This document shows, in pieces, positions 56,015 through 61,706 of a DNA stretch of 64,000 nucleotides. The stretch comes from the human T2T-CHM13v2.0 reference genome, Homo sapiens. Location: the NCBI RefSeq assembly GCF_009914755.1, contig NC_060930.1. One strand, 5' to 3'. Numbering within the stretch: the first letter of the stretch is position 1; the number at the start of each line of letters is the position of its first letter. A program made the position numbers and the translations under genes. Under the pieces are notes generated by a model, which saw only the letters and a list, made by a program, of their open reading frames with translations, had not been told where the DNA came from and did no database searches.

Positions 56015-56163
56015 CTTTTTATAAGGGTTAGCTGCTATATCTTTATCCAAGAATGTCCATTCCCTCCTCTGAAAATTTTTAGACTCATTGTACCAGCCTT
56101 CAATTACATTTGATCATGAGACAGGATAAGATGACAATTGTATATTTCCTTGACATTTACTAT
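56015..56163 (-). pseudogene. CRISP-like pseudo-exon 5 (149 bp)
   Basis: Acceptor tttccttttttcag, phase-1 start, donor AAG|GTAAGC. Motif SYPVS*SNVIEGWYNES..F...EWT with a TGG>TGA stop at 56114-56116. Confidence 0.92.
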
Positions 56164-58682
56164 CTGAAAAAAGGAAATAGGGCTGGGCCGTACCCTACAA
56201 GAATATTTTTCTCATTTTTATTTTACAAATGCTTCACTGATCATCTAGGCAACATCTAGAGGGGGTAAACTCAGTTATATCCCTGTTGGCAATCTTCTTT
56301 CTTTCTCATTGATAAATAAGTATGTGGTGCCCAGGTTCAGTGATAAGTTGATAGCAGGAGATGATAAACAAGCGTTGAAATCAGATCAACCAACCTTTCA
56401 GTCTCTGTCTCTTTCAAGCTAATGGAGATGAGTGAAACCAAATCAGAGAAGCTTAAGTATTGTAACAGGGTCCATGGCTACTCTGAAGCCATTCTATTCA
56501 TTATGTAAGGACCATGAAATAAGCATCTGTTCTATTTAACCATCCACCTATGGTGTGGGCTTTTCATCCAGCATGGTATTTAGGAATGATCTTCCTTTCT
56601 GTGGGCCAGGGAAGATGCAAATTGTCAACTTATTGAACCCAGTCCCACATTGTTTCCCAGGGCCACAGTTTTTCAGTCAAATACTCATCCACCACTCCAC
56701 CTCCACCTCCTCCCACATCTCAGGCACTTTTTGGTAGAGTGGCCATGTCTTCCAGTTCAGAGTGTCCCAAGGTATGTGAAAACTAAATCCAGGAGGTCTA
56801 CCTAATGATAGACTTGCCTTTCTCTACACAATATCTGAGTTCCTTCTCTGAAAAACACCCTGCTACCTACACCAAGGAAATTAATACGGCTAAGGAAAAC
56901 ACATGACAGTGTATTCATTTCTTGTCTTTACAACAACCACCAACAGTAGCCAACTCAGCTTATAGTGTTGCTTCTCTGTGATAGGCAACATAAGTCTTCA
57001 AAAGGCCATTCAGATTTCTGCCCCATTTTAAGAGAATATGAATTTAAGTAATTCAAAAGCCTGACATTCTGTCACAAGGGATTGTGAGGAGAAGACAAGA
57101 AAGAGAAAGAAAGTTAAAAAAAAAGAACTATTATTTCCTGCCCTACCTGTTCATCCCTATCTCTGGTAGTTTCCATCCTCAATGGGGTAGTGAGCTTTAG
57201 AAATATCTAGATAGATATGGAAGCAGCTAGAAAATTGGCGGTATTTGTATACTTTCCTCAGAGAATAAGAAAGAGTAAGAAAACTTTGAGGGAAGACTTG
57301 AGTTAATGTTTTACAATGTGTCCTTGGTAAAGAAATAAATCAAACTGCTAGAGCCCATGTCCTTTAATATGGCTTGGGTTAATAACTTTTCAGATACCGT
57401 AGAAATGGCACACAAAATTGCTAAGGGTGCTCAAGAGTAAACAAGAGGTAGAGAAAATCCAAGATAACAGTATTTTATTTTAATTTGCAAAGACAGATTT
57501 TAAAAAGTATTGTACTGCATTAGACCAAATTTGCTCCATTGAATTCAAATTTATTTTATTTTTTTTTCAAATTTTTTTTCTCCACTATTTAACAACAAGA
57601 CTAGTGAGGAAAGTTAGCTCAATTCATAGAAAATAAACAAATCAATATTTTCCCTACACTTTTCAGTGTAATGTTAGCCATTTGGTGATCTGCAGAGTCA
57701 GTTTGATAGGGCTGTGTTGGGCTGTGCCCACAGTGGAAACCTTAGCCACCACCACCTACTACTGATGAAAAGCACCAGCCAGTCCTCTTAGTTCCTGCAC
57801 CCAATGTTGCTTTCTAAAGAGCTACTTTTAAGAGCTACTTTCTTTAAGAGCTACTTTTACTTGCTATGTATTTTTAAGGTGGATGTGTGATAAAATAAGG
57901 TCATATATGTGTCTATATACAAGTAGTACACTTGAGAAATAAAAACAATTCTTGACGAGTTACAAATGCTAAAGCGTACAATATGGTGGAATCCTTTTGT
58001 CATAAGAGTTTTGGAGAATAGCTAAAAGAGCTTAGTTTTATTCAGTTTTGCTACTGAAAATTAATTTGTCAATGATATTGCTCAAAGATTACCAATAATC
58101 TATAGATATAGAAGTCCCATTAGTACTTTTTATTATTTTATAATAAAATATTCTTGTAGATATTTTTAATATCCACTTGTGTAGAAAGTACTAATGGCTT
58201 TTCTGAAAACTAGCAGTGAACCTAATTTACATGGTTATCGTATTGCCATGAGATGGGCTCACCTTTGACCCCTTAAAAATGTTCTTATGGGCAGATCAGA
58301 AGAATTGCCTATCGACAATTCCTAAAGCTAAAGAAATCCTAGCGGTAATATATTGTGGGTAGCTGAGACAACTGCATTGAGTGGAAACCATCTAAGCATC
58401 TAGCTGCCTGTCCAGTCATTATTGCATTGCTCAAATATTCTATAATTTTTAGAGCTTTGATTCCCTTATCCTTGGTGACCTGAATTTGGAACCTATAAAT
58501 GTGAATATTCAAATTAAATAATAATAATAATAAAACCTGTGTATTAGACCATATTTCACTGTCAAGTATGGGTACATATGCAAATACAGACTGTATGATG
58601 TAACCTCATCTTGCCAGGAAATTAACAACCTCTGGAGAGTTTTGAGCACATTGGGCCATACAGAGCCGCTACATATCCCTGC

Positions 58683-58773
58683 TTGCAATTTTCCACTCCT
58701 GTTCTTTGATCTGTATCAGTTTACACTGCTTTGACATCATTTTGGCCTTTTGCGCAGCATCTTTACTCCAGTT
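58683..58773 (-). pseudogene. CRISP-like pseudo-exon 4 (91 bp)
   Basis: Acceptor ctcttcctctatag, then the open frame NWSKDAAQKAKMMSKQCKLIQIKEQEWKIA plus 1 nt. Donor mutated to GCAGGG. Length equals CRISP1 exon 4 as recalled. Confidence 0.88.
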
Positions 58774-60419
58774 CTATAGAGGAAGAGTAAATATCAAACT
58801 CATGATCTTATTAAAATTTCCATGATAAGTCTAGGTTATTTTTTAAAACCACATCTAGCAATATCCTCAACTTATAAGCTAAAAATTTAAATAATGAAAT
58901 TACTCTTTTATTTATGGTAGAAAAAATAAAACATAGTTCGTTAAATTCACAAATTCAAAATTTGATAATAACAATCAGATTAGCCTCTCTTTCTGATGTA
59001 GTAAAGACTTAAGGAAATGCTTTCAGTAGATCTACCAAGATAGAAATCCATCACATTATTTATTTGTAGTTTTACCTCTGACACATTATTTTATCTCGAT
59101 ATCTCAGTTTCTTTGACTCATAGTTCATATTAAAACATTTGTTCCAAAGGCTTAATGTGATAATCAATGCCATATAATTATTATATGGCAAATCCTGAAC
59201 TATGTCCTGAATTAATAAATGATAACTATGATTGGAAAGCAGTATAGTATTGGGCATCTATATTTAAAATTGTGAATAATAAAAATTAATAGGTAACACA
59301 ACACACTAGAATCTGTTTTTAAGTCTGCAAATATTTTTTCTTACTTTTTCCTCACAGCAACTCCAAAATGGAAGTACTATTGTTATCTCCGTTTACAAAT
59401 TAGGAAACTGAGGCACAGATATGCTCTTGGGTACTTGTCAGCAGCAGTTGTTCTACAAGTAAGGTGAAAAGTAGAACCTCTTTATCACTAGGTATTGGAT
59501 AAATAATTTCCCTAAGATTGTTTCATCCTCTCATTCTCTACATCGATTTAAAGGACTGCCACTATATTCACATGCAAAACATTGCCAAAAAAAAGTGTGA
59601 ACATTGTTTTTTCAATAGGCTTTTATGTAAGTTATTTAGCTACACATTAGAATAATTTTAGAATGACAACCTAACTTAGAATTTCAGTATTTTCTCTTTT
59701 AGTGGAAGAAGTCTTAATTATGATATGTGTGTGCTGCCATCTGATGATAACTTTCTAGGACATTTCATGTTAATGAATTAACTAAACTACAGGATGAATG
59801 AAATAATTCATTAGCCTGACACTGTGTAAAGACATGCTTGTCAGGTTTTAATTTCTTCATGCAAGAAAAGACACATTTGTTACAGCCTATGTCTAAGGAA
59901 CAGAGATACAACACCATATTCACTTCTCCCAGGGTAGGGAATATTGTCGCACTTGTTAATAAAGATAACTTTCCTATTACGACCAGGTTACCATATACTT
60001 AGAACAGGAACTTACCTAGTTAAATCCCAACTGACTGCTTGTTATGGATGCAGTGCATCATCATTCTGAAGGGCATATTCGCCCAGCAGCTGGGAGTCCT
60101 GCCCAGAAGCAGCTCTACAGTCTGCCCTTTCTGAAAGTTGCCATAATCCCTTTGCTGGGCAAGCCCACTTGGAGAGTTGGTAGACGTACATTTCAGGCTT
60201 ATAATACTTTCTAATGTCTCCTTTGTACTCATCTTAACTCCCCAGGAATAAGGTTTCTAAAACCTTATTTTTAAATAAAAAAAATGAGAAAACTTATTTT
60301 TAAATGAGCTCATGTAAGGCTACATTTTTTATTGATTCTTCAATCTTGTTAGTACTAACTAGGCACACTTACTTGCTCATCTGGCAGCCAAGGAGTTTGG
60401 ACCCCATTTGTCCTAAGGA

Positions 60420-60655
60420 AGAAAAGTGGTTAAGAGCAGAATACCTGTAGCTGGCCCACTTCCATTGGAATATGGGCTCCAATGCTTATAACTGGATAAG
60501 GTGCTTAATTTTTCTGAATGTTAGTGTCATTATCTGTAAAATGGAGATGGTAGTATTATCTACCTTACAGGATTATTGGAAGAATTAAATGAGTCATTGT
60601 AAGAAGGTACTAGAAAATTGCCTGTCAATAATAAGCACCATATGCGTGTTAGTTA
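60420..60655 (+). mobile_element. MIR
   Basis: gtggttaagagca...tctgtaaaatggagat...gaattaaatgag core. Confidence 0.7.
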
Positions 60656-61584
60656 AAACCCTTCCAACAGGGGAGTGCTTATGATAGCTATTGATTTGTA
60701 TTGTTTTGTTCAAATGACATTTTGAATTCTAAGATGACCAAGATTAAAATTTTGAAATTCTTTTTTATTCTTTTGTTTCCTTCTTTATGTGATTTGTGTG
60801 AAGAAGTTGTTCATTAGAATCACCCTCCAGGGCCTGCACTATTTCTAACTCTTGTTCTTTAGGCCAGTCCAGGGTTCAAGAAGCAGGCTGAAGGTGCTCA
60901 TAAACCTGAGTGATACTGCTGGCCAATGAATGTGAGGCTAATTACCTCATGCGCCTGATACTTTCCTAAATTGGTCTTGTGGAAGAACATAGGTTTAGAG
61001 TGGAAAGACATTTTCTCTAAGCTCTTATGAAATGCAATGAAACTAGAGAGTAAATTTACCTACATTTGTTTATCTGACAACATCAACAGGCTAAATATCT
61101 GGATATCTTAAATCTCAGATGAGCGTCTTAGCCTCTGGATTACTGCTCAATGAGGAAAGCTATGAAATGCATGGATAACTTGCTAATCAGTATTTGCCAT
61201 ATGTGCTAGCAGCATCAGCATCAGTTGGGAGATTATGGTGGCCTCCATGTCAGACCTCCTAAATCGGAATATCAGAGAAGGTGGCCCAGGTAAGTGTGCT
61301 TTACTAAGTTCTTCAGAAGATTCTTAAAGACAATGAAGTTTGAGAAGCACTATCTTAGGGTACATAAGCATGAAGCTAGACTGGCGGAGCTCTGTCATTG
61401 ACTAACTGTATGATGGTGAGAAAGTTGCTTATCTCCTCTGAGCTTCTATTTCTTTTTCTGTATCATACGTTTGTTGTGAAGATCCAACTTTTAGTATATT
61501 GCAAGTGCGTGGAACTTTACAAAAACTCAGTAGACATTATTACTATTATTGCCAATATTGATGTTGCTGTTTTTTAGGTCTTAC

Positions 61585-61706
61585 CATCTGCAGCATGTTG
61601 CTGGCTGGTGAAATGACGCCTCTCCTGAGGGTGTTATATGCGTTAACAATTTATTCTTGTACAGCTGGTGATTCAATGTTTGTTATTTAAGTGGTAAAAT
61701 TGTTCA
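61585..61706 (-). pseudogene. CRISP-like pseudo-exon 3
   Basis: ESPAVQE*IVNAYNTLRRGVISPASNMLQM followed by GTAAG (phase 0). TAA stop at 61651-61653. The 5' part and acceptor (AG at 61707-61708) are decayed, so that boundary is approximate. Confidence 0.9.

What the first reader, a model, noticed from the sequence alone, without database searches (positions are those of the whole stretch)
56015..61706. Hidden CRISP1/CRISP4-like unprocessed pseudogene between PGK2 and CRISP1
Seen in sequence: three minus-strand exons in the correct order and phase, none in the ORF track. Exon 3 (61585-~61706) reads VQE*IVNAYNTLRRGVISPASNMLQM|gtaag. Exon 4 (58683-58773, 91 bp) reads tag|NWSKDAAQKAKMMSKQC... Exon 5 (56015-56163, 149 bp) reads cag|NSKCQGNIQLSSYPVS*SNVIEGWYNESKNF..EWT..|gtaag. 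Established: these are CAP-domain motifs. From memory, CRISP1 has [26 protein letters not shown] / SWSEEAAQNA / SYPVSWSSVIGVWYSES..F...EWT and exons of 91 and 149 bp. Inference: this is a fourth human CRISP paralogue that has been lost. I do not recall it being annotated, but I cannot check.
Basis: partly seen in the sequence, partly recalled or inferred. Interest (0 to 1): 0.9.

Follow-up and report, generated by a model that had tools for sequence, protein, structure and literature searches.

The report
Truncated CRISP1 pseudogene fragment beside PGK2
Between PGK2 and CRISP1 lies the decayed, non-coding middle third of an old tandem copy of the sperm-maturation gene CRISP1, an ordinary kind of gene relic that the RefSeq annotation does not list.

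Summary
On the minus strand at 61585-~61680, 58683-58773 and 56015-56163 lie remnants of CRISP1 exons 3, 4 and 5. They are in order and in phase, and exons 4 and 5 keep CRISP1's lengths of 91 and 149 bp (CRISP2 and CRISP3: 88 and 146) with splice boundaries aligned. Exon profiles give E 2e-16, 4e-10 and 4e-18. The introns between them still align with CRISP1 introns (77% identity over 3061 sites), so this is an unprocessed duplicate, not a retrocopy. It is dead: two in-frame stops, a non-canonical dinucleotide at the exon 4 donor, and no trace of exons 2, 6, 7 or 8.

Homology stops inside exon 3. A second diverged pair of segments (39482-42132 and 63992-66514) fits one old tandem duplication whose downstream copy lacked its 5' end from birth. 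dN/dS against CRISP1 is 0.89. Phylogeny puts it in the CRISP1 (rodent Crisp4) lineage; the exact node is unresolved. Divergence suggests roughly 80-150 Myr.

None of the 225 proteins retrieved looks like an intact orthologue. "A lost fourth CRISP gene" is therefore only partly supported. RefSeq lists no CRISP pseudogene, and my literature searches found no mention. GENCODE could not be checked. Interest is modest.

The parts
61585..61680 (-). Remnant of CRISP1-type exon 3 (3' ~95 nt of a 129-nt exon). Its donor GT at 61584-61583 aligns with CRISP1's. The 5' limit is uncertain by about 10 nt.
   Evidence: (E 2.4e-16)
61651..61653 (-). In-frame TAA inside the exon 3 remnant
58774..61584 (-). Intron 3 remnant, colinear with CRISP1 intron 3 in blocks of 67-75% identity. 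It holds exon 4 of lncRNA LOC101927048 (60373-60412) and, on the + strand, two exons of LOC101927020.
   Evidence: annotation given
58683..58773 (-). Exon 4 remnant, 91 nt as in CRISP1, open, acceptor aligned with CRISP1's
   Evidence: (E 4.3e-10)
58681..58682 (-). The dinucleotide after exon 4 is GC where CRISP1 has its canonical donor
56164..58682 (-). Intron 4 remnant, partly colinear with CRISP1 intron 4
56015..56163 (-). Exon 5 remnant, 149 nt as in CRISP1, both splice sites aligned and canonical
   Evidence: E 6e-10; E 4.3e-18; E 3e-6 genome-wide
56114..56116 (-). In-frame TGA inside exon 5
54737..56014 (-). Remnant of the first part of intron 5. Homology with CRISP1 ends at 54737, next to repeat-rich DNA.
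57460..58773 (-). Terminal exon of annotated lncRNA LOC101927048. It begins exactly at the exon 4 acceptor of the relic and reads on through the altered donor.
   Evidence: annotation given with the finding
39482..42132 (.). Segment S2, the paralogue of S1. Six colinear same-strand blocks, 75.0% identity over 1117 sites, K80 0.306. It is read as the 3' flank of the same duplication unit.
63992..64000 (.). Start of segment S1. It runs on beyond the window to chr6:49666514 (locus L001) and holds exons 2-3 of LOC101927048.

Best explanation
This is a non-coding, unprocessed pseudogene fragment of the CRISP1 lineage. An old tandem segmental duplication copied a block that ran from the middle of CRISP1 exon 3, through the 3' end of the gene, to a flanking segment S. 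The upstream copy remained the working CRISP1. The downstream copy had no promoter, no signal-peptide exon and no start of exon 3, so it most likely never made a CRISP protein (inferred). It then drifted neutrally, acquired two stops and an altered exon 4 donor, and lost the stretch that held exons 6-8 to deletion and repeat insertion. What works today is incidental: the old exon 4 acceptor serves as the last splice acceptor of lncRNA LOC101927048 (from annotation).

Shown here: homology, exon structure, breaks, extent, lineage and neutral-like divergence. Inferred: the single-event duplication model, death on arrival, and the date (order of 100 Myr).
For: - Three colinear exons with CRISP1 lengths and aligned splice sites.
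- Intron homology with CRISP1 over chr6:49687718-49694040 against window 54737-61663: 3061 non-exonic sites, 77.4% identical, K80 0.273.
- CRISP2 and CRISP3 match the region only across 51 nt at exon 3.
- Exon profiles for exons 2, 6, 7 and 8 find nothing in the interval (best E 0.41 to 1.0). Unmasked blastn outside 54737-61704 finds only multi-copy repeats.
- The 5' homology ends inside exon 3.
- S1 and S2 are paralogous with K80 0.306, close to the 0.273 of the gene part. S1 matches nowhere else in the genome.
- Exonic identity is 220/295 = 74.6%, no higher than intronic. dN/dS is 0.89, with differences by codon position of 32/24/32 over 104 codons; CRISP2-CRISP3 gives 0.26.
- The 45 best of 225 retrieved proteins are all eutherian: their sources name 43 CRISP1, one CRISP1-like and one hypothetical. 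The best is about 53-60% identical per exon.
- In the tree the relic sits inside the eutherian CRISP1 clade, SH-aLRT 100. Placing it outside the mammalian CRISP1 lineage gives p-AU 0.037.
Against: - The junction expected between S1 and the exon 3 break (61680-63992) shows no recognisable continuation of S2's far side, so the one-event model is not proven.
- The S1/S2 divergence is slightly higher than the gene part's (0.306 against 0.273).
- A whole-gene copy followed by two deletions would leave the same remains.
- dN/dS near 1 has little power over 104 codons, because CRISP1 itself evolves fast.
- The tree pairs the relic with cattle CRISP1 (SH-aLRT 95, cattle end branch 0). That cannot be literal and shows long-branch trouble.
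- AU tests do not reject three alternatives: a join with catarrhine CRISP1 (p 0.14), a join with primate CRISP1 (p 0.27), or a place outside crown eutherian CRISP1 (p 0.44).
- Aligned intron blocks are biased towards the best-kept parts, and gene conversion could have lowered K.
- Pfam does not recognise the pieces.
Confidence: 0.85

Rival explanations
1. One reading: a complete fourth CRISP gene once worked here and was later lost, its 5' and 3' parts removed by later deletions.
For: The duplication unit reached well past the 3' end of the gene (S1/S2), so exons 6-8 were probably once present. Splice sites of exon 5 and the acceptor of exon 4 are still canonical, and exons 4 and 5 have no frameshifts. 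The interval is full of repeats that could mark deletions.
Against: The break lies inside exon 3, with only about 2.3 kb (0.67 kb of it masked repeats) before S1 begins. There is no trace of exon 2 or intron 2. Exons are no better kept than introns, and dN/dS is 0.89. No second CRISP1-clade protein per species, and none closer to the relic than CRISP1 orthologues, appeared among 225 proteins.
Confidence: 0.28
2. A young, primate-specific duplicate of CRISP1 that decayed unusually fast.
For: AU tests do not reject a join with catarrhine (p 0.14) or primate (p 0.27) CRISP1.
Against: Non-exonic divergence of K80 0.27-0.31 is close to that of CRISP2 against CRISP3 (0.33). In the tree that split predates the spread of placentals, since dugong has both types. 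The free tree places the relic outside the Euarchontoglires CRISP1 clade (SH-aLRT 99).
Confidence: 0.06
3. A processed (retrotransposed) copy, or a chance resemblance.
For: None found.
Against: Introns are present and homologous to CRISP1's. E-values run down to 4e-18, and order, strand, phase and boundaries are all right.
Confidence: 0.01
4. The exons are still functional, either as unannotated alternative exons of CRISP1 or as a small coding gene.
For: The region is transcribed according to RefSeq lncRNA models on both strands, and one model uses the exon 4 acceptor (annotation).
Against: The relic lies about 14.5 kb downstream of CRISP1's last exon. There are stops in exons 3 and 5. The lncRNA reads through the exon 4 donor into intron sequence. 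Substitution is near-neutral.
Confidence: 0.02

Closest known systems
Human CRISP1 (parent gene, chr6:49676220-49719057 in T2T-CHM13)
   Same: Same strand and same cluster. Exons 4 and 5 have identical length and phase, the splice boundaries align, and introns 3, 4 and part of 5 are still alignable. Amino-acid identity is 50/104.
   Different: The relic lacks exons 1, 2, 6, 7 and 8 and the first third of exon 3. It has two in-frame stops and an altered exon 4 donor. Motif positions that are conserved in all six aligned CRISP1 proteins differ at the start and end of exon 5.
Rodent Crisp4 (orthologue group of human CRISP1)
   Same: The relic falls in the same eutherian clade as the rat and Peromyscus CRISP4-type proteins.
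   Different: It is a paralogous side branch in the human lineage, not a counterpart of a separate rodent gene. Rodent 'CRISP1-like' proteins (mouse Crisp1/3 type) fall in the CRISP3 group instead, as PMC7278046 proposes (passages read).
Unprocessed (duplicated) pseudogene fragments in tandem gene clusters
   Same: It keeps its introns, lies next to its parent in the same orientation, is truncated, carries stops, and is partly reused by lncRNA transcripts.
   Different: Nothing unusual for the class. The age and the break inside an exon are the only particulars.

Membership tests
CRISP subfamily of the CAP superfamily (as a gene relic) | Sequence homology to the CAP/SCP domain | tested here: met
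   The exons align with CRISP1 residues ~38-146. Profile E-values are 2e-16 to 4e-18. Pfam PF00188 itself did not report them, probably because the pieces are short.
CRISP subfamily of the CAP superfamily (as a gene relic) | C-terminal hinge and cysteine-rich (Crisp/ICR) domain, exons 7-8 | tested here: not met
   No match in the PGK2-CRISP1 interval: nhmmer best E 0.97 and 0.41, and nothing colinear by tblastn.
CRISP subfamily of the CAP superfamily (as a gene relic) | Signal-peptide exon | tested here: not met
   Best exon 2 profile hit has E 0.81, at L001 1778-1817. No intron 2 or exon 2 homology was found.
CRISP1 lineage (rather than CRISP2/CRISP3) | Exon lengths 91 and 149 nt, intron homology, tree position | tested here: met
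   Exclusion from the lineage gives p-AU 0.037.
Unprocessed (duplicated) pseudogene | Introns retained at the parent's positions | tested here: met
Unprocessed (duplicated) pseudogene | Disabling lesions and lack of constraint | tested here: met
   Two in-frame stops, a GC at the exon 4 donor, truncation at both ends and dN/dS 0.89.
Unprocessed (duplicated) pseudogene | No protein product | not testable with these tools
   No expression, ribosome or peptide data were available.
Processed pseudogene | Intronless copy with poly(A) tract | tested here: not met
   Introns of 2.5 and 2.8 kb lie between the exons.
Unitary pseudogene (a once functional gene with intact orthologues elsewhere) | An intact orthologue in other species | tested here: inconclusive
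   None of the 225 proteins from named sources is closer to the relic than ordinary CRISP1 orthologues. No non-human genome could be read here, and only the best 120 hits of each search were listed.

The most novel reading that the evidence does not exclude
The relic is what remains of a fourth placental CRISP gene, a sister of CRISP1/Crisp4 born around the placental radiation. On this reading it worked for a time and may still be intact, or differently decayed, in some mammalian orders. CRISP1-type epididymal function would then have been shared between two genes in early placentals. The lncRNA LOC101927048 that reuses its splice acceptor would be the residue of its transcription unit.
Probability: 0.12. 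Interest if true: 0.5.

Novelty: new member of a known kind. Interest (0 to 1): 0.3.

Why it matters
It adds one unlisted relic to a small, medically studied gene family (sperm maturation and fertilisation). It documents a tandem duplication in the CRISP cluster that the evolutionary literature I could search does not mention; that literature describes most mammals as having three CRISP genes (PMC7278046, passages). It also explains the origin of a splice site used by an annotated lncRNA. It changes nothing about human CRISP protein biology. Its practical value is for annotation, and as a marker for tracing the history of the cluster across mammals.

Tried and rejected
- **Pfam.** The CAP model scanned over the whole genome listed 15 exon matches of CAP genes but not the relic. 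Pfam on three stop-free pieces gave 0 families. Both are insensitive for exon-sized pieces.
- **Rfam.** 53000-64000 gave 0 families at gathering score.
- **Missing exons.** The search for exons 2, 6, 7 and 8 found nothing significant. A weak exon 2 profile hit (E 0.81) overlapping lncRNA exon 3 at L001 1778-1817 was inspected and dropped as chance. A tblastn hit of CRISP1 residues 207-243 at 62749-62639 (E 0.29) is out of order and was dropped.
- **Protein searches.** The first found nothing in its length range.
- **Exact node.** AU tests did not resolve it. The pairing with cattle CRISP1 in the quick tree is treated as an artefact. The planned test of a join with Euarchontoglires CRISP1 never finished and was not rerun. 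No 'careful' tree was run.
- **Long gene models.** I checked 15 long CRISP1 models for an internal second copy of exons 3-5. All have only N-terminal extensions.
- **Literature.** CRISP1+CRISP4+pseudogene gave 2 papers, neither about a human relic. CRISP1+CRISP2+CRISP3+pseudogene gave 1, the rodent ESP paper. 'Cysteine-rich secretory protein'+pseudogene+'CAP superfamily' gave 11 papers, 10 listed, none relevant by title; one was opened and was irrelevant. LOC101927048 gave 0 papers. LOC101927020 gave 1, an osteosarcoma ncRNA profile, seen as a listing only. PMC7278046 has 0 occurrences of 'pseudogen'. Supplementary files were not consulted. The gene trees in the supplements of PMC7826187 and PMC7278046 might bear on this.
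- **Not possible here.** GENCODE/Ensembl and pseudogene databases, and any non-human genome.

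
Full report
**What is there**

I spliced CRISP1, CRISP2 and CRISP3 from their RefSeq coding exons inside a script. CRISP1's coding exon lengths are 66/129/91/149/98/89/128 nt and CRISP2's are 66/117/88/146/98/89/128. The 91- and 149-nt exons of the relic are therefore of the CRISP1 type.

- tblastn of the three proteins against chr6:49600001-49676200 gave, for CRISP1, three colinear minus-strand hits. They were at 61704-61585 (residues 28-65, E 1.7e-6), 58773-58681 (66-96, E 0.033) and 56155-56012 (99-146, E 6e-10). 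CRISP2 and CRISP3 gave weaker hits to exons 3 and 5 only.
- nhmmer profiles of each exon (CRISP1, 2 and 3, with 15 nt of flank) against the 47-kb PGK2-CRISP1 interval gave E 2.4e-16, 4.3e-10 and 4.3e-18 for exons 3, 4 and 5. For exons 2, 6, 7 and 8 nothing was better than E 0.41.
- A whole-genome six-frame search with CRISP1 protein P0008 gave 18 matches, all within the chr6 CRISP cluster: 7 in CRISP1, 5 in CRISP2, 4 in CRISP3 and 2 in the relic. The relic's exon 5 scored E 3e-6 and its exon 3 E 0.023, both genome-wide.
- Pairwise DNA alignments show the exon 4 acceptor and donor positions and both exon 5 splice sites aligned with CRISP1's, without any indel in either exon.

**Unprocessed, and only a fragment**

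Repeat-masked blastn of the CRISP1 gene against the interval gave six colinear blocks joining chr6:49687718-49694040 to window 54737-61663. Over 3061 aligned non-exonic sites the identity is 77.4% (K80 0.273). Over the exons it is 220/295 = 74.6%. Introns are therefore present and homologous, and this is a genomic duplicate, not a retrocopy.

CRISP2 and CRISP3 match the region only across 51 nt at exon 3. CRISP1's introns do not align with theirs except at repeats.

Outside 54737-61704, unmasked blastn with the rest of CRISP1 finds only multi-copy repeat hits. That query covered exon 8 to intron 5, and exon 3's 5' part through intron 2 and exon 2 to chr6:49700000.

At the 5' side, identity per 20 columns falls from 14-19 to 8-10 at about window 61674-61683. 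That point is 30-40 nt inside CRISP1's exon 3. Nothing upstream to 64120 matches CRISP1's exon 3 start, intron 2 or exon 2 (best E 0.94).

**Where it is broken**

- An in-frame TAA at 61651-61653.
- An in-frame TGA at 56114-56116.
- GC at 58682-58681, where CRISP1 has its exon 4 donor.
- Both ends are missing.
- In the alignment with six CRISP1 proteins, the relic also differs at positions that all six share, at the start and at the end of exon 5.

**How it arose**

Comparing the DNA between CRISP1's 3' end and the relic with the DNA between the relic and PGK2 showed a second set of six colinear, same-strand blocks. S1 (63992-66514, mostly in locus L001) pairs with S2 (39482-42132). Identity is 75.0% over 1117 sites, K80 0.306. 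Searched against the whole genome, S1 found only itself and the S2 region, so it is a local paralogy and not a repeat family.

Read along the gene's strand, the order is: CRISP1 exons 1-8, S1, relic (exon 3 part, exon 4, exon 5), a repeat-rich 12.6 kb, S2, a 5.7-kb masked repeat, PGK2.

This is the pattern expected from one tandem duplication of a block that ran from mid-exon 3 to beyond S. It leaves an intact upstream gene and a 5'-truncated downstream copy. The similar K of the two pairs (0.273 and 0.306) fits one event. The downstream copy must later have lost the part that held exons 6-8.

This model is inference. The junction itself (61680-63992, of which 0.67 kb is masked repeat) shows no recognisable homology. 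A whole-gene copy followed by two deletions cannot be excluded.

In favour of early death, exons are no better kept than introns. dN/dS against CRISP1 is 0.89 over 104 codons, with differences by codon position of 32/24/32. CRISP2 against CRISP3 gives 0.26 over the same exons.

**Which lineage, and how old**

Protein searches were limited by the tool's length window.

- (an 83-aa open stretch around CRISP1 exon 5) found nothing.
- One search used an alignment headed by a 180-aa open frame around a PI16 exon, with exon pieces of CRISP1-3 and of the relic. It returned 256 hits, of which 120 were listed.
- One search used six full-length CRISP1 proteins plus five pieces of the relic. It returned 303 hits, of which 120 were listed.
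- Together they gave 225 distinct proteins.

blastp of the relic's three exon translations (X at stops) against all 225 ranked 45 eutherian proteins first. Their sources name 43 of them CRISP1, one CRISP1-like and one hypothetical. The best was cattle, with 23/38, 13/21 and 24/45 identities. Nothing was markedly closer, so no intact orthologue of the relic is among them. Fifteen over-long CRISP1 models have only N-terminal extensions and no second copy of exons 3-5.

I built a quick maximum-likelihood tree of 80 rows: 79 of the 225 proteins, picked by hand for taxon spread, plus the relic. PI16 rows, most bird and reptile rows and many near-duplicates were left out.

- The relic sits inside the eutherian CRISP1 clade (SH-aLRT 100, 39 rows). 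That clade includes the rat and Peromyscus CRISP4-type proteins.
- Vole 'CRISP1-like' proteins (mouse Crisp1/3 type) fall in the CRISP3 group.
- The relic's own branch is long (0.81). Its pairing with cattle, whose end branch is 0, is not credible.

AU tests gave:

| Constraint | Result |
|---|---|
| Outside the mammalian CRISP1 lineage | p 0.037, 26.2 lnL units worse |
| Outside crown eutherian CRISP1 | p 0.44 |
| Joined with primate CRISP1 | p 0.27 |
| Joined with catarrhine CRISP1 | p 0.14 |

The lineage is settled; the node is not.

For the date I rely on neutral divergence. K is 0.27-0.31, against 0.33 for CRISP2 and CRISP3 introns (5431 sites). In the tree the CRISP2/CRISP3 split precedes the spread of placentals (dugong has both types) and follows the split from marsupials. 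Taking roughly 100 and 160 Myr for those two bounds, which is recalled and not computed here, the duplication is of the order of 80-150 Myr old. That excludes a recent ape- or monkey-specific origin. Alignability bias and gene conversion make this date rough.

**What it does now**

The evidence here shows no coding function. RefSeq's lncRNA LOC101927048 (minus strand) has its terminal exon at 57460-58773. That exon begins exactly at the relic's exon 4 acceptor and runs through the altered donor. Its earlier exons lie in the relic's intron 3 (60373-60412) and in and beyond S1. LOC101927020 runs antisense, with two exons in intron 3 (annotation). Rfam finds nothing in 53000-64000. I had no expression data.

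**Known or new**

RefSeq's table lists no CRISP pseudogene anywhere in the genome. Of the papers searched:

[quoted passage not shown] It never uses the word pseudogene, and it proposes mouse Crisp1 as the orthologue of human CRISP3.
- PMC7826187 (passages read) gives the rodent order PGK2, Crisp3, Crisp1, ESP genes, Crisp2, RHAG. That places rodent Crisp1/3 where human CRISP3 lies, not where the relic lies.
- No search turned up a description of this relic.

GENCODE, HGNC and pseudogene catalogues could not be consulted, so an existing entry there is possible.

**Verdict**

It is most likely a truncated by-product of an old tandem duplication and not a fourth gene that once worked. It is an ordinary kind of object, of modest interest.

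Noticed in passing
window 39482-42132 and 63992-64000, continuing to L001 1-2514: An old local paralogy (S2/S1): six colinear blocks, 75% identity, found nowhere else in the genome. It marks the 3' flank of the same duplication unit as the relic.
   Followed up: yes
window 57460-58773 (lncRNA LOC101927048, minus strand): The lncRNA's last exon starts exactly at the relic's exon 4 acceptor, so a splice site of the dead gene copy is reused. Its first exon (chr6:49666577-49666733) lies in DNA that matches several repeat copies in the interval.
   Followed up: partly
window 33423-39147: A 5.7-kb masked repeat separates S2 from PGK2. Window 62331-62964 matches its end in reverse (75%) and 52254-52863 directly (80%), so these look like copies of one long interspersed repeat family. 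No family names were available.
   Followed up: no
proteins P0196 (pangolin, 'cysteine-rich venom protein-like') and P0199 (marmot), tree: These two placental proteins pair (SH-aLRT 93) and branch outside the whole mammalian CRISP1 group. This hints at a further old mammalian CRISP lineage that human annotation lacks. Neither is among the 90 best matches of the relic.
   Followed up: no
protein P0162 (Bos indicus 'CRISP1 isoform X3', 434 aa): It carries a reverse-transcriptase Pfam domain (PF00078) after CRISP1 residues 1-207. It is probably a gene model that runs into a LINE.
   Followed up: partly
L001 1778-1817 (chr6:49665778-49665817, minus): A weak, non-significant exon 2 profile hit (E 0.81) overlaps exon 3 of LOC101927048. 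By eye only a short T-rich stretch is shared with CRISP1 exon 2.
   Followed up: yes
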